Notes under the pieces: generated by a model
Seen by the model: only the letters and a program-made list of their open reading frames with translations
Told to the model about the DNA's origin: nothing
The model's database searches: none
Program-made: the position numbers and the translations under genes
Part shown: positions 1-40,940 of the stretch, piece by piece
How positions within the stretch are numbered: the stretch's first letter is position 1
Layout: every line of letters begins with the position of its first letter
Source: Escherichia phage K30
Direction: 5' to 3' (one strand)
Length of the DNA stretch: 40,940 bases
Sequence record: NC_015719.1

Positions 1-193
1 TCTCACAGTTTACACTTTTGGTTATCCCCCGGTACCCTCTAAGTTAGCCCAAAGTAACCATAGGCCACCCTAAACCTTCGGTTTAACCTTAGGTTGGACT
101 GTTGGGAACCTTGGGTGATACTATATGTAGTGGTTAGTGTGACCTTGGGATACTATATGTTGATCTCTCTGTATCCCTATCTGTTGGTACTCT

Positions 194-224
194 CTAAGTA
201 TCCACTAAGTATCCACTAAGTAAC
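194..224. repeat. Tandem 11-bp repeat CTAAGTATCCA (about 2.7 copies)
   Basis: Read directly: ctaagtatcca ctaagtatcca ctaagtaac; position is analogous to the short repeats next to the T7 left terminal repeat. Confidence 0.7.
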
Positions 225-334
225 AACCTGAGGTTAGACCTGAGGACATCCATCGACACTATACCTAAGGTTAACTATGCGTCTAACGTTTAGTTACTAT
301 AAGGCTATTGGTGACCATTGTCCATACACCAATC

Positions 335-357
335 AATTAGGTCACACTATAGGGAGA
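335..357 (+). promoter_or_regulatory. Phage RNAP promoter (phiOL-like), aattaggtcacactatagggaga
   Basis: Matches the 23-bp consensus shared by the other 12 promoters; +1 G at about 352. Confidence 0.8.
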
Positions 358-459
358 CACTTAAAGTATTACTAAGAGACCTTTACCATAAAACTACTAT
401 CACTATAGGTCTAACTATAAGACTAACTATAGGTCTAACTAAAAGTTTAACTTTAGGTG

Positions 460-3144: not shown

Positions 3145-5865
3145 ATGAACGCATTAAACATTGCACGTAATGACTTCTCAGAGATTGAACTGGCCGCTAT
3201 TCCGTACAACATCCTCAGTGAGCACTACGGGGACAGACTGGCACGTGAGCAGTTAGCACTGGAGCACGAAGCGTACGAGCTGGGCGAACAGCGTTTCCTG
3301 AAGATGTTAGAACGTCAGGTTAAAGCTGGTGAGTTCGCCGACAACGTGGCCGCTAAGCCGCTGGTCTTAACGCTGCACCCACAGCTAACCAAACGCATCG
3401 ACGATTGGAAGGAGGAGCAAGCAAACGCTCGCGGCAAGAAGCCTCGCGCATACTACCCGATTAAGCACGGCGTTGCCTCAGAGTTAGCCCTTAGCATGGG
3501 AGCTGAGGTACTCAATGAGAAGCGTGGAGTGTCCAGTGAGGCTATCGCACTGCTGACCATTAAGGTCGTCTTAGGGACGCTCACAGACGCCTCTAAAGCC
3601 ACCATCCAGCAAGTATCCTCGCAGTTAGGCAAGGCGCTTGAGGATGAGGCCCGCTTCGGTCGTATCCGTGAGCAGGAGGCTTCCTACTTCAAGAAGAACG
3701 TAGCGGACCAGCTGGACAAGCGTGTGGGTCACGTGTACAAGAAGGCTTTCATGCAGGTCGTCGAGGCCGATATGATTTCCAAGGGGATGCTAGGCGGTGA
3801 CAACTGGTCCAGCTGGAAGACCGACGAGCAGATGCACGTTGGGACCAAGCTACTGGAACTACTCATTGAGGGCACTGGTCTGGTGGAAATGACCAAGAAC
3901 AAGATGGCCGATGGCTCTGACGATGTGACCAGCATGCAAATGGTCCAGCTGGCTCCAGCCTTCGTGGAACTACTGAGTAAACGAGCGGGAGCACTCGCAG
4001 GAATCAGCCCAATGTACCAACCGTGCGTAGTCCCTCCGAAACCTTGGGTTGAAACCGTGGGAGGTGGCTACTGGTCTGTAGGTCGTCGTCCGCTGGCACT
4101 GGTGCGTACCCACTCCAAGAAGGCACTGCGTCGCTACGAAGACGTTCACATGCCAGAGGTATACAAAGCGGTCAACCTCGCGCAGAACACACCGTGGAAG
4201 GTAAACAAGAAGGTACTGGCGGTAGTCAATGAGATTATCAACTGGAAGCACTGCCCGGTGGGTGACGTCCCAGCGATTGAACGCGAAGAGCTACCACCAC
4301 GCCCGGACGATATCGACACCAACGAGGTGGCACGTAAGGCTTGGCGCAAGGAGGCCGCAGCGGTTTACCGTAAGGACAAGGCCCGCCAGTCTCGCCGCTT
4401 GTCGATGGAGTTCATGGTCGCACAGGCCAACAAGTTCGCTAACCACAAGGCCATCTGGTTCCCGTACAACATGGACTGGCGTGGTCGTGTGTACGCTGTG
4501 AGCATGTTTAACCCACAGGGTAATGATATGACCAAGGGTATGCTGACATTGGCCAAAGGTAAGCCAATCGGTCTCGATGGGTTCTACTGGCTGAAGATTC
4601 ATGGTGCAAACTGTGCAGGCGTCGATAAGGTTCCTTTCCCTGAGCGCATCAAGTTCATCGAAGAGAACGAGGCCAACATTCTAGCGAGTGCAGCCGACCC
4701 GCTGAATAACACTTGGTGGACCCAGCAAGATTCACCGTTCTGTTTCTTAGCGTTCTGCTTTGAGTATGCAGGGGTAAAACATCACGGCCTGAATTATAAC
4801 TGTTCGCTGCCACTGGCGTTCGATGGGTCCTGCTCTGGGATTCAGCACTTCAGCGCAATGCTCCGCGATTCTATCGGTGGTCGTGCTGTTAACCTGCTGC
4901 CTTCTGATACCGTGCAGGATATCTACAAGATTGTTGCCGACAAGGTTAATGAGGTACTCCACCAGCACGTTATCAACGGGTCTCAGACGGTGGTCGAGCA
5001 GATTGCTGATAAGGAGACTGGTGAGTTCCGCGAGAAGGTAATGTTGGGCGAGTCTGTACTAGCTGCTCAATGGTTACAATACGGGGTGACCCGCAAGGTG
5101 ACCAAGCGTTCTGTCATGACGTTGGCGTATGGTTCCAAAGAGTTTGGCTTCCGCCAGCAAGTTCTGGAAGATACCATTCAGCCCGCTATCGACAATGGTG
5201 AGGGCCTGATGTTTACGCACCCTAACCAAGCGGCTGGCTACATGGCTAAGCTGATTTGGGACGCTGTGACCGTGACCGTAGTAGCCGCTGTCGAGGCGAT
5301 GAACTGGCTGAAGTCTGCTGCTAAACTGCTTGCCGCTGAAGTCAAGGATAAGAAGACCAAGGAGGTACTTCGTAAGCGTTGCGCAATCCACTGGGTAACA
5401 CCAGATGGCTTCCCAGTGTGGCAAGAGTACCGCAAGCAGAATCAAGCGCGCCTGAAGCTGGTCTTCCTAGGTCAAGCCAACGTTAAGATGACGTACAACA
5501 CCGGGAAGGACTCAGAGATTGACGCTCACAAGCAGGAATCTGGTATCGCTCCTAACTTTGTACACTCGCAAGACGGTAGTCACCTTCGCATGACCGTAGT
5601 ACATGCCAACGAGGTCTACGGGATTGACTCCTTCGCACTCATCCATGACTCCTTCGGGACCATTCCGGCAGACGCTGGGAATCTCTTTAAGGCAGTCCGT
5701 GAGACGATGGTAAAGACCTACGAGGACAACGATGTAATCGCTGACTTCTACAACCAGTTCGCTGACCAGCTGCACGAGTCTCAGCTTGACAAGATGCCAG
5801 CGGTACCAGCCAAAGGTGACCTTAATCTGCGTGATATCTTAGAGTCTGACTTTGCGTTTGCGTAA
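3145..5865 (+). CDS. 1: Single-subunit DNA-directed RNA polymerase (T7 gene 1)
   Basis: 906 aa; colinear recalled similarity to T7 RNAP across the whole length; C-terminal ...ILESDFAFA. Confidence 0.98.
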   Translation: MNALNIARNDFSEIELAAIPYNILSEHYGDRLAREQLALEHEAYELGEQRFLKMLERQVKAGEFADNVAAKPLVLTLHPQLTKRIDDWKEEQANARGKKPRAYYPIKHGVASELALSMGAEVLNEKRGVSSEAIALLTIKVVLGTLTDASKATIQQVSSQLGKALEDEARFGRIREQEASYFKKNVADQLDKRVGHVYKKAFMQVVEADMISKGMLGGDNWSSWKTDEQMHVGTKLLELLIEGTGLVEMTKNKMADGSDDVTSMQMVQLAPAFVELLSKRAGALAGISPMYQPCVVPPKPWVETVGGGYWSVGRRPLALVRTHSKKALRRYEDVHMPEVYKAVNLAQNTPWKVNKKVLAVVNEIINWKHCPVGDVPAIEREELPPRPDDIDTNEVARKAWRKEAAAVYRKDKARQSRRLSMEFMVAQANKFANHKAIWFPYNMDWRGRVYAVSMFNPQGNDMTKGMLTLAKGKPIGLDGFYWLKIHGANCAGVDKVPFPERIKFIEENEANILASAADPLNNTWWTQQDSPFCFLAFCFEYAGVKHHGLNYNCSLPLAFDGSCSGIQHFSAMLRDSIGGRAVNLLPSDTVQDIYKIVADKVNEVLHQHVINGSQTVVEQIADKETGEFREKVMLGESVLAAQWLQYGVTRKVTKRSVMTLAYGSKEFGFRQQVLEDTIQPAIDNGEGLMFTHPNQAAGYMAKLIWDAVTVTVVAAVEAMNWLKSAAKLLAAEVKDKKTKEVLRKRCAIHWVTPDGFPVWQEYRKQNQARLKLVFLGQANVKMTYNTGKDSEIDAHKQESGIAPNFVHSQDGSHLRMTVVHANEVYGIDSFALIHDSFGTIPADAGNLFKAVRETMVKTYEDNDVIADFYNQFADQLHESQLDKMPAVPAKGDLNLRDILESDFAFA

Positions 5866-32919: not shown

Positions 32920-35631
32920 ATGGACCAAGACATTAAAACAGTCATTCAGTACCCAGTAGGGGCCACTGAGTTCGACATCCCGTTCGACTACCTGTCCCGC
33001 AAGTTTGTCCGTGTGTCGCTGGTGACAGGCGACAACCGAAGACTGCTGAGTAACATCACTGAGTACCGCTACGTGTCTAAGACCAGAGTGAAGCTCCTTG
33101 TGGAGACCGCTGGGTTCGACCGTGTGGAAATCCGTAGGTTCACCTCGGCATCTGAGCGAATCGTTGACTTCAGTGATGGCTCGGTTCTCCGTGCGGCTGA
33201 CCTTAACGTGTCTCAGATACAGTCGGCACATATCGCAGAGGAAGCACGTGATGCGGCACTTATGGCAATGCCTCAGGATGATGTCGGTAACCTTGATGCA
33301 CGTAACCGTAGAATCGTGCGGCTGGCACCGGGCATTGATAGTACAGATGCAATCAATAAGAACCAACTGGACACCACCTTAGGTGAGGCTGGTGGTATTC
33401 TGTCACAAGTCAAGGATACCCAGAAGGACATTCAGAACTACATTCAGAAGTTCGGCGATGACACCGCTATGGTTCGTGGAGTAAATTGGGTGTATAACGG
33501 TGGGTCTGCCATTGGTGGAGAGACCTCCTTTATCATCGACAAGTCAGCGCCAGTGTTCGCCGTACCATACATTGAGGTAAACGGAAGCCGTCAGTTCCGA
33601 GACTGGCAGTACGAGTATGACCCTGCAACCAAGCGTGTCACTCTGGTTAAACCTCTGGAGGCTGGAGACTTTGTTGTATGCCTCACTACCGAGAATAAGT
33701 TACCTTTAGAAGACCTGCTGGCTAGTACAGGAGGTGCCGATTCCATTGGTAAGGCTGGAGGTGGTACAGTTCAGGATGGTCTGGATGCAACGATACATGG
33801 TACTGATGTCCACCGAGACACTGTGACTCCCGGTAAACTGGACACACTCCTTGTGTACAATGGGACCAACGCTGGGCGCGACCTACGTGGCCATGAGTTC
33901 GTAATGCCCCACGGCACATTCTCCGCGACTCGCATCTTGAGAACTCGTGGTATCTCAGCGGCTGAATCTAAGTACACTGGGTTCACTTGGCGCGGACAGG
34001 GTAGTTCGTTCACCAAGTTGGTCCACCCTGCGACTGGTGGTCAGGGTGATATTGCATTCATGGACTACCTGAAGGATGTTACGATGTCTGGGTTCATGAT
34101 GGACAACACCGCGCTAGGTCAGGGGACTTCCAATCAGGATACCCGTAACGGTCAGTTCTGGATTCGACATTCGGTTGACTCCTACTTCGACGACCTGCGC
34201 TTCGCTGGTGCTGACGCCCTTACGTTCTGTCTGGACCACTGTAAGAACATCTACTCGACAAACCTCAAGGTAGACTATCAGCTGCGCTATCCGACTGGTA
34301 CAGGTAAGTCCCCGCTAATAGTTGGTGACTACTCGGAGCAGTGCATGTTCATCGGCGGCTACGTTAAGACCGTGTCACCTGACGGAACCATAAAGTATGC
34401 TGGTGACCTCGCAGATAACGACCAAGCGGATGATACCAAATGGGCGTTCATTAACCTGTACGGATTGACGTTTGAACAGAAGCCTAACTCTAACGCCTGT
34501 ATGTGGCAAGAAGGGGAGGGTGCACCATCCAACGCTCACTTCATCGGTATGAACTACATCAACAACGGTGTAGGTCATGGTGTGTCTGAGAAAGCTGTGG
34601 GTACTGACATCGGGTCTACCTTCCGTCAGGCTCAGGTTCGTGCTGTGTGGAACCGTGCTGAGTACATCTCAATCGGCAGTCACTTCATTAACAACGATGC
34701 CAAGTATCCTGCTGGCACTGGTGGCGCAGGTACTGCGGCTGCTGGTGGTGTTCATAATGACAACGCCAAGTTCACCTCTCTGGTTGGTGACTACTTCCGT
34801 GGTAACTTCGCGGATTATACAGACTACACAGGGGCATCTGGTGTTAACCCGGAGAACTCAACCCACATCACCAACGCAAAGTTGACATCCATCATTCGTA
34901 CATCGTCCTCCAGTACCTCTCAGCATTTAGCCATTGTGAACTGCCAGTTAACTTCTGCGGGTCGTATTAGCGGCGGCGGTAACGGGAGACTCCACGTGTC
35001 CGTTGTGGCATCTCACTGCGTCGGGCCTCTGGGGCAGTTTGGTCACGGACAGTCCGAGACGTACCTTGACGTCATAAACTCTACGTTCACTGCCGCTGGT
35101 AGCACTGAGGCTATGATTACCCAGTCAGGTGTTGGTAATATCTCGTTCGCTAACTCCACGTTCCGTGATTATATCCGTGTGGTAGATGGCTCGCATACCC
35201 GTGTTACCTTCCGTAACTGTACGTTCTACACTTGTACTTTCACTGAGGACGACCGAAAAGCTCGCTACGTTAACTGCCGATTTATCTCGTGCACTGACGC
35301 TCCAGACTCCTTCGGCCTCAACTTTGCGGCAGACTCTCTGGACCGCCCTAGCTCACTTCGAGTTAACGTAACGTTAACTGCTGGCGGCAGCTATACGTTC
35401 CCGGCTTGGGTACTTCAGGGTCGTGGTGCTTACTTCATCAACGTGGGTGGTAATGGTGCCAACCTTCCTGCCTGCGCTGGTATCATTGGTAAGAGTAGCG
35501 CGACTGGTAGTGGTGTATGGACCCCTCAGTGGGAAAGCACTCCTAGTAGTATTGTTGTATCTTGGCCATCCAACGGATACATTACTGTTACGGCCACAAC
35601 TGCTGGCAACTACACAATCGGCGTCCACTAA
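32920..35631 (+). CDS. 17: Tail fibre / tailspike with T7 gp17-like N-terminal anchor and beta-helix (depolymerase-like) C-terminal region
   Basis: N-terminal 150 aa resemble T7 gp17 ([48 protein letters not shown]); C-terminus has repetitive N.TF / NCTFYTCTF segments typical of parallel beta-helix enzymes; start at ATG 32920 with AAGGAGGT RBS. Confidence 0.9.
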
Positions 35632-35644
35632 TAAGGAGAACCAC

Positions 35645-37198
35645 ATGTTAGACAAATTGAATCAGCCGAAAGGCTCAACCATTGGTGTGCTCAAGGATGG
35701 GCGCACCACCCAAGAGGCCATTGACGAACTCACTAATGATGTAACAGGAAGTATCACAACTACCCGGTATGCATCGAGTGCTTCCCAGGCGCTGTTCCCG
35801 AAGCTCATTGACAAGATGACTGCGTATCGGCATGGTGTCTCTGGATTCCAAGACAAGTTTCGAATCTACGGGTATGGCTCCTCTGTAGGCAATGGGGCAA
35901 CGATTGGTGGAAACTCCTCGCCAAATACCCCAGTAGCAAAATTCTTTGAGCACTTCCAGAGGACGGTCAACAAGGCTGGAATCTACCCATTCGAATACTC
36001 GAACAAGTCGGTGGATGGTTCCAACATCAACGATTTCCTCAACCGGGAGTGGCCTGCGACTGTCGCCACTGGTGTCTTCCCGGACCTAGCGGTTTTCGCT
36101 TACGGTATGAATGACTTCCCCTCGGCGCAGTATAATGCTGGGATGACCTTCGGGGCCAACGGTTTCAAACAGAGACTTCGCAATGCAATACAGAAGGTTC
36201 GAGACGCTGGCGGAGATGTAGTTCTCCTGACCACCCCACACCCAAACATTGAGGAATACTCGTGGGAACTCCCGTCAAGTATAGACATGGTGTGGCCCCA
36301 GTTTGCTGCCAAACCCGTGGCTGGTGACGTTCTTATTCCACCAGTGTCACAATCAAATGTGTCCTTCGACTTCATGGGCAAACGCATCACTCAGGGTGTT
36401 CGCTTCCTGAGAGGTAACGATGCGATGCGTGAGGTTGCTGTGGAGATGGGTTGCGTCTTGATTGACGTTGAGAAATACTGGTTCGAGGCCGTTGGTAAGT
36501 ATGGGAACGTACTACTGTTCGACCGCGTGCCAGCAATGCAGACAGTGCACCCTAACCTACTGGGTCACCAGCAGTCGTACTGGCGGGCAATCGAAGAGTT
36601 CTTCAACAATGTGGATTCCTCTGGATGGATTGCTCCAGACGCTAAGTTGAACCAGACGCTGGATGTTGGCGGTAACGCCCTGAACCCCGCGAAGATGGAA
36701 GCTGATGTCGACCTTCAGGCCAACGGCATCCGTCAGCGTGCATTCGTGCGCCGGGATAAGTCTGGCCGTGTCATGGAGGAGCTGACGCAGGACAGCAGGG
36801 TCAAGCGCACATCCTACACGGTGTCAGACCCTACAGTATCAGCTCCGGGATATAGCCTAACATGGGACGAGTGGTTTACCCGCACCAAGGGATTATTCAC
36901 CAGTGGGGAGACTTTGGGCATCCCTGTAAATAACCGCACCGAAGGTCGACTATTAGTCACAGCGTGGATTTCAGGCCAGACTGGCTGGACCCAGCTTGAG
37001 GACTACTTAGTCTCTAACCGTGAGGGTGTTGTATTGGTCTCCAAGATTGGCTCTTTAGATAATACTCCACCGGCTGGTGGTACAGGGACCAACGGTCAGC
37101 GCCTGTTCACCGTGTCCACCTCTGCGAACAATGTCGTGGTTAATATCCTATCGGATAACGCCACTGTGAAGTTCAAACTGGACACCTTTGGGGCATAA
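35645..37198 (+). CDS. Second receptor-binding protein candidate with SGNH/GDSL-hydrolase-like motifs (putative esterase tailspike)
   Basis: 517 aa from ATG 35645 with TAAGGAGAA RBS; motifs YGYGSS, YGMNDF, VHPNLLGH in the order expected for an SGNH fold; sits between gene 17 and the holin. Confidence 0.6.
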   Translation: MLDKLNQPKGSTIGVLKDGRTTQEAIDELTNDVTGSITTTRYASSASQALFPKLIDKMTAYRHGVSGFQDKFRIYGYGSSVGNGATIGGNSSPNTPVAKFFEHFQRTVNKAGIYPFEYSNKSVDGSNINDFLNREWPATVATGVFPDLAVFAYGMNDFPSAQYNAGMTFGANGFKQRLRNAIQKVRDAGGDVVLLTTPHPNIEEYSWELPSSIDMVWPQFAAKPVAGDVLIPPVSQSNVSFDFMGKRITQGVRFLRGNDAMREVAVEMGCVLIDVEKYWFEAVGKYGNVLLFDRVPAMQTVHPNLLGHQQSYWRAIEEFFNNVDSSGWIAPDAKLNQTLDVGGNALNPAKMEADVDLQANGIRQRAFVRRDKSGRVMEELTQDSRVKRTSYTVSDPTVSAPGYSLTWDEWFTRTKGLFTSGETLGIPVNNRTEGRLLVTAWISGQTGWTQLEDYLVSNREGVVLVSKIGSLDNTPPAGGTGTNGQRLFTVSTSANNVVVNILSDNATVKFKLDTFGA

Positions 37199-37414: not shown

Positions 37415-37672
37415 ATGGACCTGATTAAGTTCCTCGAAATGTTAGACACTGAGATGGCTCAGCAGATGCTCATGGACCTGAAGAATCCAGAGAAGCGGAC
37501 CCCTCAGTTGTACAACGCCATTGGTAAACTACTGGAGCGTCACAAGTTCCAAATCTCTAAGCTAACCCCTGACGTTAACATCTTGGGTGGACTGGCTGAG
37601 GGTCTGGAGGCTTACAACTCCAAGGTGGGTGCTGATGGTCTTACAGACGACGATACGTTCACCCTACAGTGA
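37415..37672 (+). CDS. 18: Terminase small subunit (T7 gene 18)
   Basis: 85 aa; recalled similarity to T7 gp18 (FLEMLDT.MAQ.ML.DL, PQLYNAI.KLL.RHKFQI.KL.PDV.ILGGLA, GLTDDD..TLQ). Confidence 0.9.
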   Translation: MDLIKFLEMLDTEMAQQMLMDLKNPEKRTPQLYNAIGKLLERHKFQISKLTPDVNILGGLAEGLEAYNSKVGADGLTDDDTFTLQ

Positions 37673-37768: not shown

Positions 37769-38215
37769 ATGCTGGGGTTCACAAAGAGAATCGTCCCGTA
37801 TCTTGTGGCTATCATGGTGTTTGCCTTCGGGTGGCACTTGGGTTCGCAATCTACGGACGCTAAATGGAAGGAGGTAGTACAGAATGAGTACGTTTCGAAG
37901 CAAACAGCTAGAGTTCAAACTCAAGCAGCACTTGATGAGATATCGGCTAAGTACCAAGCAGACCTTGAGGGGCTGGAGGGCAGCACTGATAGGATTATTG
38001 CTGATTTGCGTAGCGACAATAAGCGGCTGCGCGTTAGAGTCAAACCTACCAGTGTCGCCGCAGGACCAGACGGTCGATGCCTCGTTGATGGTTCCGTCGA
38101 ACTACACGAAGCAACTGCTCGAAGTCTTATCGCAATAACCCAGAAGGCCGACCTCAAAGAGAAGGCCCTACAGGACACTATTCGTAAGCTACAGCGGAAA
38201 GGAGGTGAACATTGA
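37769..38215 (+). CDS. 18.5: Rz-like i-spanin (T7 gene 18.5)
   Basis: 148 aa; N-terminal TM segment; recalled similarity to T7 gp18.5 ([43 protein letters not shown]). Confidence 0.9.
37884..38138 (+). CDS. 18.7: Rz1-like o-spanin lipoprotein, embedded in gene 18.5 (T7 gene 18.7)
   Basis: 84 aa in the +1 frame inside 18.5; lipobox ...[11 protein letters not shown]; recalled similarity to T7 gp18.7. Confidence 0.8.
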   Translation: MSTFRSKQLEFKLKQHLMRYRLSTKQTLRGWRAALIGLLLICVATISGCALESNLPVSPQDQTVDASLMVPSNYTKQLLEVLSQ

Positions 38216-39969
38216 GTAACTCTCAGCAAGCCAAGAACGCCTTAATCATTGCACAACTGAAGGGTGACTTTGTCGCCTTTCTCTTCGTGCTCTGGAAGGC
38301 CCTGAATCTGCCGGAACCAACCAAGTGTCAAATCGACATGGCTAAATGTCTGGCAGACCCAAAGAACAAGAAGTTTATCCTTCAGGCTTTCCGTGGTATC
38401 GGGAAGTCGTTCATCACGTGTGCGTTCGTTGTGTGGACCCTGTGGCGTGACCCTCAGTTAAAGATACTGATTGTCTCAGCCTCAAAGGAACGTGCGGACG
38501 CTAACTCCATCTTCATTAAGAACATCATCGACTTGTTGCCTTTCCTGAGTGAGCTTAAACCTCGCCCCGGTCAGCGTGACTCCGTGATTAGTTTTGATGT
38601 AGGCCCTGCCAAGCCAGACCACAGCCCGTCAGTTAAGTCTGTAGGTATTACGGGTCAGCTTACTGGTAGCCGTGCCGATATCATCATTGCAGATGACGTG
38701 GAGATTCCCGGTAACTCTGCAACTCAAGGTTCTCGTGAGAAACTCTGGACGTTGGTTCAGGAGTTCGCCGCGCTGTTGAAACCTCTACCGACTAGCCGTG
38801 TTATCTATCTGGGTACCCCTCAGACCGAGATGACGCTCTACAAGGAACTTGAGGACAACCGTGGTTACTCTACAATTATCTGGCCAGCACAGTATCCTCG
38901 CTCCAAAGAGGAAGACCTGTACTATGGCGACCGACTGGCTCCTATGCTCCGTAGCGAGTACGATGAGGACAAAGAGGGTCTCGCCAGTCAGCCAACAGAC
39001 CCGGTGCGGTTCGACTCTATGGACCTTCAGGAGCGTGAGGTGGAGTACGGCAAGGCTGGCTATACGCTTCAGTTCATGCTCAACCCAAACCTCAGTGACG
39101 CCGAGAAGTACCCTCTACGCCTCCGTGACGCTATCGTGTGCAGTCTACAGGTAGACAAGGCCCCAATGCACTACCAGTGGTTACCTAACCGTCAGAACCG
39201 CAATGAGGAGCTTCCTAACGTGGGTATGAAGGGTGACGAGATTTACTCCTTCCATACGGCCTCAAGTAACACTGGTGCGTATCAAGGTAAGATTCTGGTC
39301 ATTGACCCAAGCGGTCGTGGTAAGGATGAGACTGGCTGGTGCGTATTGTATACCCTCAACGGTTACATCTACTTGATGGACGCTGGTGGTACTCGTGGTT
39401 ACGAGGAGAAGTCCCTTGAGTTCCTCGCCAAGAAGGCCAAACAGTGGCAGGTTCAGACTGTGGTCTTCGAGAGTAACTTCGGTGACGGTATGTTCGGTAA
39501 TGTGTTCCAGCCTGTTCTCCTGAAGCATCACCCAGCGCAACTCGAAGAGATTCGTGCTCGTGGTATGAAAGAGGTCCGCATCTGCGATACCCTTGAGCCT
39601 GTACTGGCAAGTCACCGCTTGGTCATCCGTGATGAGGTAATCCGACAGGACTACCAGACGGCACGTGATGCAGACGGTAAGCACGCTCTGAAGTACAGCC
39701 TGTTCTACCAGATGACCCGTATGAGCCGTGAGAAGGGAGCTGTGGCACATGATGACCGACTTGATGCATTAGCATTGGGTGTTGAGTTCCTACGCTCTAC
39801 GATGCAGCAGGACGCTGTGAAGATAGAGGCTGAGGTACTTCAGGAGTTCTTGGAGCACCACATGGAGAAACCTCTGAGTAATATCTCACAGTTCAGAACC
39901 ACCAGCAGTAACGGTGTGGACATCCGGTGGGAAGACGATGGGGATGACTCTATGTTCATCGCATGGTAA
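38212..39969 (+). CDS. 19: Terminase large subunit (T7 gene 19)
   Basis: 585 aa; recalled extensive identity to T7 gp19 ([70 protein letters not shown]); TTG start with AAAGGAGGTGA RBS. Confidence 0.97.
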
Positions 39970-40049
39970 CTATGCAGGGATTGTGCATAAGGATTCATTG
40001 GGCCACGGAAGGCTGCTTTGGGGAAACTCCATGTATAACAGACACTTGG

Positions 40050-40072
40050 AATTAGGACCCACTATAGGGAGA
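40050..40072 (+). promoter_or_regulatory. Phage RNAP promoter (phiOR-like), aattaggacccactatagggaga
   Basis: Consensus match, downstream of gene 19 as in T7. Confidence 0.85.
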
Positions 40073-40363: not shown

Positions 40364-40540
40364 GGTCTTCCTGACGCGCTAGGGATTCCGTAGTGATGCT
40401 TATCAGCATACACCACTCCATCCCTCTATAGTCAATACTTAAAGTTAACCTTAGGTGATTCACTGGGTCTACCTACGGGTCTATGCACTGACCTGAGGAT
40501 TACCTGAGGTTACCTTTAAGAATATTACATAAAGTTCTGA

Positions 40541-40940
40541 GTGTATATCTCACAGTTTACACTTTTGGTTATCCCCCGGTACCCTCTAAGTTAGCCCAAA
40601 GTAACCATAGGCCACCCTAAACCTTCGGTTTAACCTTAGGTTGGACTGTTGGGAACCTTGGGTGATACTATATGTAGTGGTTAGTGTGACCTTGGGATAC
40701 TATATGTTGATCTCTCTGTATCCCTATCTGTTGGTACTCTCTAAGTATCCACTAAGTATCCACTAAGTAACAACCTGAGGTTAGACCTGAGGACATCCAT
40801 CGACACTATACCTAAGGTTAACTATGCGTCTAACGTTTAGTTACTATAAGGCTATTGGTGACCATTGTCCATACACCAATCAATTAGGTCACACTATAGG
40901 GAGACACTTAAAGTATTACTAAGAGACCTTTACCATAAAA
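40541..40940. repeat. Right copy of 400-bp direct repeat (includes a second copy of the phiOL-like promoter at about 40875-40897)
   Basis: Identical to positions 1-400 by direct reading. Confidence 0.8.

What the first reader, a model, noticed from the sequence alone, without database searches (positions are those of the whole stretch)
40541..40940. Window ends with an exact 400-bp copy of its own start, longer than a typical T7-group terminal repeat
Positions 40541-40940 equal 1-400, extending past the short ACCTGAGG repeats and through the first phage promoter. T7-group terminal repeats are usually about 160-230 bp. Either this phage has an unusually long terminal redundancy or the sequence was captured from a concatemer or circularised assembly with wrap-around. 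Either way the unit genome is about 40,540 bp plus the true repeat.
Basis: seen in the sequence. Interest (0 to 1): 0.5.

Follow-up and report, generated by a model that had tools for sequence, protein, structure and literature searches.

The report
Over-extended terminal repeat, phage K30 record
The window is the deposited genome of the T7-like Escherichia phage K30, whose two ends share an exact 393-bp repeat. Comparison with relatives indicates that only the first 178 bp is the real terminal repeat and the other 215 bp is most likely the record running on into the next genome copy, which is an ordinary database matter.

Summary
The repeat is real but mis-measured. Positions 1-393 equal 40548-40940 exactly, not 400 bp from 40541, so the unit length is 40,547 bp.

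The window is Escherichia phage K30, a K11-like Przondovirus. Its tail-fibre proteins are exact matches on a 40,940-bp contig.

The block CCCT|ATCTGTT (window 175-185) is invariant from T7 to K30. ATCTGTT is the T7 RNA polymerase class II pause signal of the concatemer junction. In T7, T3, K11, KpV763, K5-2, KP32_194, Tokugawa and KlebP_144 the terminal repeat ends within -1 to +3 nt of that point. Their repeats are 160, 231 and 177-182 bp.

K30's terminase is 98.6-99% identical to that of relatives with 177-181-bp repeats. ACCTGAGG pairs flank a 178-bp repeat symmetrically.

So the true repeat is most likely 1-178 / 40548-40725, giving a mature genome of 40,725 bp. Positions 40726-40940 repeat 179-393, as in a concatemer or wrap-around.

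Only phage K5 shares this, with 392 bp ending at the homologous column. Its paper describes 454 sequencing and assembly and no end mapping.

A genuine 393-bp repeat is not excluded (about 10%). Interest is low.

The parts
1..393 (+). Left copy of the exact 393-bp repeat present in the record
   Evidence: Longest prefix equal to a suffix is 393 bp; repeat family D1.
40548..40940 (+). Right copy of the exact 393-bp repeat
1..178 (+). Predicted true left terminal repeat. It starts with the conserved T7-group left end TCTCACAG and ends ...TATCCCT.
   Evidence: Alignment with T7, K11, KpV763, K5-2, Adeo, Saitama and S7a: columns 1-9 and the block TCCCTATCTGTT are invariant. Relatives' repeats end at the homologous CCCT.
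179..185 (+). ATCTGTT, preceded by T. This is the class II pause/termination signal for the phage RNA polymerase and marks the concatemer junction.
   Evidence: It is the only occurrence in the genome apart from its repeat copy; about 5 are expected by chance on both strands. The same single + strand position sits directly after the repeat in T7, T3, KpV763 and K5-2. K11 annotates 180-188 as 'concatemeric junction'. The motif's role is described in the papers read.
40548..40725 (+). Predicted true right terminal repeat. The predicted mature right end is at 40725.
   Evidence: Copy of 1-178. The homologous record ends of K11, KP32_194 and Tokugawa stop at CCCT or CCCTA.
40726..40940 (+). 215-bp over-run: a second copy of 179-393, the sequence that follows the repeat only in a concatemer or circularised assembly. 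It carries second copies of ATCTGTT (40726-40732), ACCTGAGG x2 (40773, 40785) and the phiOL-type promoter (40881-40903).
   Evidence: In records with mapped ends, such as Saitama, Tokugawa and Oda, the homologous segment occurs only once.
194..245 (+). Short repeats just right of the junction: CTAAGTATCCA x2.6 (194-222) and ACCTGAGG x2 (226-233, 238-245). They correspond to the T7 left short-repeat array.
40491..40509 (+). ACCTGAGG x2 just left of the right repeat, corresponding to the T7 right short-repeat array. Together with 226-245 they flank a 178-bp repeat symmetrically.
   Evidence: KpV763 has the same arrangement.
334..356 (+). phiOL-type phage promoter (CAATTAGGTCACACTATAGGGAG). It lies outside the repeat in T7, T3 and K11.
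   Evidence: Promoter family D2 with 14 copies. phiOL is annotated at 405 in T7, 366-388 in T3 and 479-501 in K11, all beyond the repeat.
402..458 (+). 12/24-bp tandem repeat (ACTATAGGTCTA...) starting 9 bp beyond the end of the 393-bp repeat. K5, K11 and KpV763 have one copy only.
   Evidence: (D8).
40049..40071 (+). phiOR-type promoter, which would send transcription through gene 19.5 and the repeat to the junction pause signal.
   Evidence: D2. K11 and T7/T3 annotate phiOR at the homologous place.
37415..37672 (+). Terminase small subunit (gp18 homologue)
   Evidence: 98.8% identical to KpV763 and 72-76% identical to T7/T3.
38212..39969 (+). Terminase large subunit (gp19 homologue). The start codon was assigned mechanically.
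   Evidence: 98.6-99.0% identical to KpV763, K5-2 and K5, and 79-83% identical to T7/T3.

Best explanation
The window is the deposited genome of Escherichia phage K30, a K11-like member of the T7 group. Its virion DNA most likely carries an ordinary T7-type direct terminal repeat of 178 bp (1-178 and 40548-40725), which gives a mature genome of 40,725 bp.

In these phages replication makes head-to-tail concatemers with one copy of the repeat between genomes. The phage RNA polymerase, reading from phiOR through the repeat, pauses at the class II signal ATCTGTT that lies directly after the repeat. Terminase (gp18/gp19) then cuts there and at TCTCACAG, and the repeat is duplicated during processing.

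The last 215 bp of the record (40726-40940) are the bases that follow the repeat only in a concatemer. They are therefore an over-run of the deposited sequence past the true right end, produced by assembly or curation, and not part of the terminal redundancy.

Shown here: the exact repeat, the conserved junction motif, where relatives' ends lie, the near-identity of the terminase, and the identity of the phage.

Inferred: that K30 cuts where its relatives do, and how the over-run arose. One possibility is that 454 reads starting at the physical left end were laid onto the right repeat. The homologous 392-bp repeat of K5 may have been set by analogy with K30.
For: 1. Motif position. CCCT|ATCTGTT at 175-185 is invariant in nine genomes from T7 to K30. 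It is the only ATCTGTT in the genome besides its repeat copy.

2. Where relatives' repeats end. The repeat stops within -1 to +3 nt of that point in T7 (160 bp, motif at 161), T3 (231/232), KpV763 (181/182) and K5-2 (177/179). The same holds for K11 (exact 181, annotated 1-180, with 180-188 annotated 'concatemeric junction'), KP32_194 (180/181), Tokugawa (181/181) and KlebP_144 (annotated 182/180). Isolate G13 is annotated at 181; its motif position was not examined.

3. Measured ends in the genus. Ten przondoviruses assembled from long reads have repeats of 180-183 bp. Oda and Tokugawa were validated by primer walking (PMC10438801).

4. Packaging enzymes. TerS is 98.8% and TerL 98.6-99.0% identical to those of phages with 177-181-bp repeats.

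5. Flanking repeats. ACCTGAGG pairs flank the 178-bp unit on both sides, at 40491/40502 and 226/238, as short repeats flank the T7 repeat.

6. Promoter position. phiOL lies outside the repeat in T7, T3 and K11.

7. No signal at the 393 boundary. K5 there differs from K11 and KpV763 by 2-3 bases, and those phages do not end there.

8. Rarity. The segment 185-393 occurs in about 375 records and is duplicated in at most 13. The duplications seen were K5, a permuted wrap-around record (KP17) and an internal duplication (G13).

9. K5's method. The K5 paper describes 454 sequencing at 19x and CLC assembly, with no terminus mapping.

10. The motif's known role. ATCTGTT is the strictly conserved class II signal found at the right end of the T7 concatemer junction.
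Against: There are no reads or physical end data for K30, so the argument rests entirely on comparison with relatives.

The record begins exactly at the canonical left end and has been called well curated (PMC10438801). The depositors may therefore have had evidence that I cannot see.

K5 independently reports a 392-bp terminal repeat that ends at the very same alignment column. That coincidence needs either biology or copying, and copying is only my inference.

The role of the paused polymerase in choosing the cut site is taken from the T7 literature, largely from memory (Lyakhov 1997; Zhang and Studier 2004). It has not been tested in K30.
Confidence: 0.8

Rival explanations
1. K30, and likewise K5, truly package a 393/392-bp terminal repeat. 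The right-end cut has moved 215 bp downstream of the conserved junction, so the repeat includes the short repeats and phiOL.
For: The repeat is exact and starts at the canonical left end. Two phages that are only about 73% identical in this segment end their repeats at the same alignment column, after CCATAAA(A/G). The K5 paper states that 392-bp direct terminal repeats flank the genome. The K30 record is regarded as well curated.
Against: The junction motif is intact at 175-185. The terminase is about 99% identical to that of relatives with 177-181-bp repeats. The sequence at the 393 boundary is nearly the same in K11 and KpV763, which do not end there. No end mapping is described for K5. All phages of the genus with measured ends have 180-183 bp.
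Confidence: 0.1
2. The extra 215 bp reflects real molecules: concatemeric or replicative DNA in the preparation, or a minority of virions with longer right ends. On this reading it is not an assembly or curation artefact.
For: The bases after 40725 are exactly what a concatemer contains. T7-group DNA is concatemeric inside the cell (PMC10438801).
Against: A read through a concatemer would have no reason to stop at 393, nor at the same column in K5. Purified virion DNA is the usual template. This cannot be tested without reads.
Confidence: 0.07
3. The whole repeat is a circular-assembly overlap, and the true ends lie elsewhere or the genome is circularly permuted.
For: Wrap-around records exist in this genus. 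KP17 starts in the middle of the repeat and runs about 750 bp past TCTCACAG.
Against: The window starts exactly at the invariant left end TCTCACAG. It encodes T7-type terminase and has the full junction anatomy. Relatives have mapped fixed ends.
Confidence: 0.03

Closest known systems
Terminal repeat and concatemer junction of phage T7 (160 bp) and T3 (231 bp)
   Same: The left end TCTCACAG is the same. The right boundary block TCCCT|ATCTGTT is the same, and this is the single + strand ATCTGTT in each genome. Short repeats flank the repeat. phiOR lies upstream and phiOL downstream. Terminase is gp18/gp19 type, with TerL 79-83% identical.
   Different: The interior of the repeat is diverged. 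The flanking short repeat is ACCTGAGG rather than CCTAAAG. The K30 record continues 215 bp past the junction, which the T7 and T3 records do not.
Klebsiella phage K11 and other przondoviruses with curated ends (KpV763, K5-2, KP32_194, Tokugawa, Oda, Saitama, Adeo)
   Same: Same genus-level genome (about 90% identity). They share K11-type promoters and the same repeat start and junction. The terminase of KpV763 and K5-2 is about 99% identical.
   Different: Their records end at the junction with repeats of 177-183 bp. The K30 record carries 393 bp.
Klebsiella phage K5 (KR149291 / NC_028800)
   Same: It is the only other record found that starts at TCTCACAG and repeats about 390 bp. Its repeat is 392 bp, ends at the homologous column, and has the junction motif internal at 184.
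   Different: Only about 73% identical to K30 in the 185-393 segment. It lacks the 24-bp tandem duplication just beyond the boundary. It was deposited in 2015, later than K30 as far as I recall, and its ends were not mapped according to its paper.

Membership tests
T7-type direct terminal repeat (Studiervirinae) | Identical sequence in direct orientation at both genome ends | tested here: met
   1-393 = 40548-40940, exact.
T7-type direct terminal repeat (Studiervirinae) | Left end begins with the conserved TCTCACAG | tested here: met
   Columns 1-9 are invariant in nine genomes.
T7-type direct terminal repeat (Studiervirinae) | The repeat ends immediately before the class II pause signal (H)ATCTGTT of the concatemer junction | tested here: not met
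   Not met for the 393-bp repeat as recorded: the motif lies at 179-185, 215 bp inside it. It is met if the repeat is taken as 1-178. Relatives end within -1 to +3 nt of it.
T7-type direct terminal repeat (Studiervirinae) | phiOL promoter lies outside (right of) the left repeat | tested here: not met
   Not met for 393 bp, because the promoter at 334-356 is inside. Met for 178 bp. T7, T3 and K11 have phiOL outside the repeat.
T7-type direct terminal repeat (Studiervirinae) | Arrays of short repeats flank the repeat on both sides in the concatemer | tested here: met
   ACCTGAGG x2 at 40491-40509 and at 226-245 flank the 178-bp unit.
T7-type direct terminal repeat (Studiervirinae) | T7-type terminase small and large subunits | tested here: met
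   TerS is 72-76% and TerL 79-83% identical to T7/T3.
T7-type direct terminal repeat (Studiervirinae) | Physical ends of virion DNA coincide with the repeat boundaries | not testable with these tools
   No reads or virion DNA are available. It needs run-off sequencing, restriction mapping or whole-molecule reads.
Genus Przondovirus / Escherichia phage K30 | K11-type promoters, genome-wide similarity to przondoviruses, and proteins identical to the K30 record | tested here: met
   14 promoters with the consensus AATTAGGGCACACTATAGGGAG. About 90-95% identity to Klebsiella przondoviruses over 25 kb. Both tail-fibre proteins are exact matches to AEH41055.1 and AEH41056.1 on a 40,940-bp contig. The contig is IMGVR_UViG_651703039_000001.
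Record over-run / wrap-around artefact | The extra sequence equals what follows the repeat in a concatemer, and its outer boundary carries no conserved cut-site signal | tested here: met
   40726-40940 = 179-393. The sequence at the boundary is nearly identical in K11 and KpV763, whose genomes do not end there.
Record over-run / wrap-around artefact | Read depth is doubled only over the true repeat, and no virion molecules span the true right end | not testable with these tools
   The raw reads of the K30 project are not available here.

The most novel reading that the evidence does not exclude
K30 and K5 really package a terminal repeat of about 390 bp. In that case the conserved polymerase pause signal sits 215 bp inside the repeat and phiOL is duplicated at the right end. 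In a T7-group phage the right-end cut would then be uncoupled from the concatemer-junction pause site, even though the terminase is about 99% identical to that of relatives that cut at the junction.
Probability: 0.1. Interest if true: 0.4.

Novelty: already known. Interest (0 to 1): 0.1.

Why it matters
It matters mainly for database hygiene. K30 is used as a 'well curated' reference for orienting przondovirus genomes, and an over-long repeat can be copied into new records. K5 may be an example.

The corrected values are a 178-bp repeat and a 40,725-bp genome. These affect genome-length and completeness statistics and any design that relies on the true ends.

The analysis also gives a practical rule. 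In this subfamily the single + strand ATCTGTT marks the right boundary of the terminal repeat, so the repeat can be delimited from sequence alone.

If the 393-bp repeat were real, it would be a modestly interesting exception to junction-coupled cutting.

Tried and rejected
1. Looked for the window itself in the GenBank phage collection. No record was near-identical; the best was VLCpiA3d at 94.8%, and HM480846 is absent. Identity was obtained instead from an exact scan of viral contigs and an exact protein look-up.

2. Tested whether the window's tail spike matches the K30/K69 depolymerase of K5-2 as a clue to identity. Only the N-terminal 300 aa match, so this clue led nowhere.

3. Searched the literature for how the K30 ends were determined. 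Nothing was found.

4. Considered that an assembler broke at the tandem repeat starting at 402. K5 lacks that tandem repeat yet has the same boundary, so I rejected it as a common cause.

5. Looked for a second class II signal or cut-site-like motif near 393. There is no other ATCTGTT, and resemblance to the left cut site is weak.

6. Took OR639934 (KpV763 isolate G13, 43,271 bp) for another wrap-around record. It has a 181-bp repeat and an internal duplication of the early region.

7. Checked for a hairpin left of the right repeat as a T7-like processing element. It is present in K30 and KpV763 but not evident in T7 or T3. I kept it only as a side note.

Full report
**Observation.** The window ends with an exact copy of its start, but the repeat is 393 bp and not 400. 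The longest prefix that equals a suffix is 393 bp, so 1-393 = 40548-40940. The claimed identity of 40541-40940 with 1-400 fails (one search gives a spacing of 40,547). The unit length is therefore 40,547 bp. The repeat does run past two ACCTGAGG copies at 226 and 238. It also runs through a phage promoter at 334-356. That promoter is one of 14 copies of the K11-type consensus AATTAGGGCACACTATAGGGAG.

**Identity of the sequence.**
- The window is contig IMGVR_UViG_651703039_000001, 40,940 bp.
- Its two tail-fibre proteins are exact matches to AEH41055.1 and AEH41056.1 of Escherichia phage K30, on a 40,940-bp contig.
- NC_015719 is the K30 genome according to PMC5696595.
- K30 is absent from the GenBank phage collection searched here. 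This explains why the best match there was only 94.8% (VLCpiA3d).
- It is a Przondovirus, that is, a K11-like member of the T7 group. About 360 to 430 of the matching records in each search are Klebsiella phages.

**Where the terminal repeat should end.** I aligned the left ends of K30, K5, K11, KpV763, K5-2, Adeo, Saitama, S7a and T7. Two blocks are invariant: the first nine bases (TCTCACAGT) and TCCCTATCTGTT at window 174-185.

ATCTGTT occurs in the window only at 179-185 and at its repeat copy 40726-40732. About five occurrences are expected by chance on the two strands.

In every relative for which I could compute or read the ends, the repeat stops within -1 to +3 nt of that motif:

| Phage | Repeat length (bp) | ATCTGTT position |
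|---|---|---|
| T7 | 160 | 161 |
| T3 | 231 | 232 |
| KpV763 | 181 | 182 |
| K5-2 | 177 | 179 |
| K11 | 181 exact (annotated 1-180) | 182 |
| KP32_194 | 180 | 181 |
| Tokugawa | 181 | 181 |
| KlebP_144 | 182 (annotated; ends not identical) | 180 |

- K11 also annotates 180-188 as 'concatemeric junction'.
- KpV763 isolate G13 is annotated at 181 bp; I did not examine its motif position.
- Adeo, Saitama and S7a are annotated at 182, 181 and 177 bp. In the alignment the motif falls next to those ends.
- In those records the motif appears once on the + strand, because the right copy of the repeat stops just before it. In K30 and K5 it appears twice, because the record runs on.

**What the motif is.** ATCTGTT is the strictly conserved class II pause/termination signal of T7 RNA polymerase. 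[quoted passage not shown] In K30 it is preceded by T. From the T7 literature (Lyakhov et al. 1997; Zhang and Studier 2004), which I cite from memory, pausing at this site is needed for concatemer processing and packaging.

**Further anatomy supporting a 178-bp unit.**
- ACCTGAGG pairs lie just left of the right repeat (40491, 40502) and just right of the junction (226, 238). They flank a 178-bp unit symmetrically. CCTAAAG repeats flank the T7 repeat in the same way, and CCTGAGG flanks the KpV763 repeat.
- phiOL lies outside the repeat in T7 (405), T3 (366-388) and K11 (479-501). In K30 it would lie inside a 393-bp repeat.
- The packaging enzymes are essentially the same as in relatives with short repeats. 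TerS is 98.8% and TerL 98.6-99.0% identical to those of KpV763 and K5-2.
- Ten przondoviruses assembled from long reads have repeats of 180-183 bp. [quoted passage not shown]

**The one exception, K5.** Klebsiella phage K5 (KR149291) has annotated 392-bp repeats. Its repeat ends at the same alignment column as K30's, after CCATAAA(A/G). The two phages are only about 73% identical in this segment.

Independent accidents would not stop at the same column, so this needs either biology or copying. Three observations argue against biology:
- At the boundary K5 differs from K11 and KpV763 by only 2-3 bases, and those phages do not end there.
- K5 keeps the junction motif at 184.
- Its terminase is about 99% identical to the others.

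The K5 paper describes 454 sequencing at 19x, CLC assembly, and no terminus mapping. I infer, but cannot show, that K5's ends were set by analogy with the K30 record, which I believe (from memory) was deposited earlier.

Duplication of this segment is rare. It occurs in about 375 records and is present twice in at most 13. The cases I looked at were K5, a circularly permuted wrap-around record (KP17) and an internal duplication of the early region (G13).

**Conclusion.** The most likely reading is that K30 has an ordinary T7-type terminal repeat of 178 bp (1-178 and 40548-40725) and a mature genome of 40,725 bp. Positions 40726-40940 repeat 179-393, which is the sequence that follows the repeat only in a concatemer. 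They are therefore an over-run of the deposited record.

How the over-run arose is unknown. One untestable idea is that 454 reads starting at the physical left end were overlapped onto the right repeat and extended the contig by roughly one read length.

A genuine 393-bp repeat remains possible, at about 10%. The record starts precisely at the canonical end, it is regarded as well curated, and I have no read-level or physical data.

**Decisive tests.** Run-off sequencing or whole-molecule reads of virion DNA would settle it. So would an HpaI digest: the right-terminal fragment is 279 bp under the 178-bp model and 373 + 121 bp under the 393-bp model.

**Novelty and interest.** The terminal repeat, the concatemer junction and the phage itself are all known. 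The unusual length is most likely a property of the record and not of the virus. Interest is low. The useful by-products are the corrected coordinates and a simple sequence rule: the single + strand ATCTGTT delimits the terminal repeat in this subfamily.

Noticed in passing
window 40438-40520: An imperfect inverted repeat (32-nt arms) lies 27 bp left of the right terminal repeat and includes the two ACCTGAGG copies. As single-stranded DNA it folds at -15.3 kcal/mol, z = -3.9 against shuffles. The same hairpin is present in KpV763 but is not evident at the equivalent place in T7 or T3. It may relate to the hairpin intermediate proposed for T7 concatemer processing (recalled from memory, not tested).
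   Followed up: partly
window 402-458: A tandem repeat of a 12/24-bp unit (ACTATAGGTCTAACTAAAAGACTA, 2.4 copies) resembles the core of the phage promoter (CACTATAGG). It lies between phiOL and the first host-type promoter. K5, K11 and KpV763 have a single copy.
   Followed up: partly
whole window, both strands: ATCTGTT is absent everywhere except the junction, where about 5 occurrences are expected (Poisson P about 0.006). On the + strand the same holds in T7, T3, KpV763, K5-2 and K5. This is consistent with selection against internal pause signals on the transcribed strand.
   Followed up: partly
window 32920-35628 and 35645-37195: There are two consecutive tail proteins. One is a 903-aa tail spike whose cluster includes several Klebsiella phages. 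The other is a 517-aa protein that UniRef names an SGNH hydrolase-type esterase. PMC5696595 equates them with the 90- and 52-kDa subunits of the K30 capsule depolymerase.
   Followed up: partly
L023 (OR639934.1) 878-1345 and 3193-3660: KpV763 isolate G13 (43,271 bp) carries the SAM-dependent methyltransferase gene twice, about 2.3 kb apart. This suggests an internal duplication of the leftmost early region, including the phiOL segment, and makes the genome about 2.5 kb longer than the original KpV763 record.
   Followed up: no
L009/L010 (PP096838.1, phage KP17): This record is labelled a complete linear genome. It starts about 65 bp inside the terminal repeat and ends about 750 bp past TCTCACAG. 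That is a circularly permuted assembly with overlapping ends, not a record with true termini.
   Followed up: partly
L018/L019 (PV528436.1, KlebP_144) ends: The annotated 182/183-bp terminal repeats are not identical at the two ends. The right end reads ...GTGTCCCTTATC, so no exact prefix-suffix match was found. This is probably a small sequencing or trimming error at the terminus.
   Followed up: no
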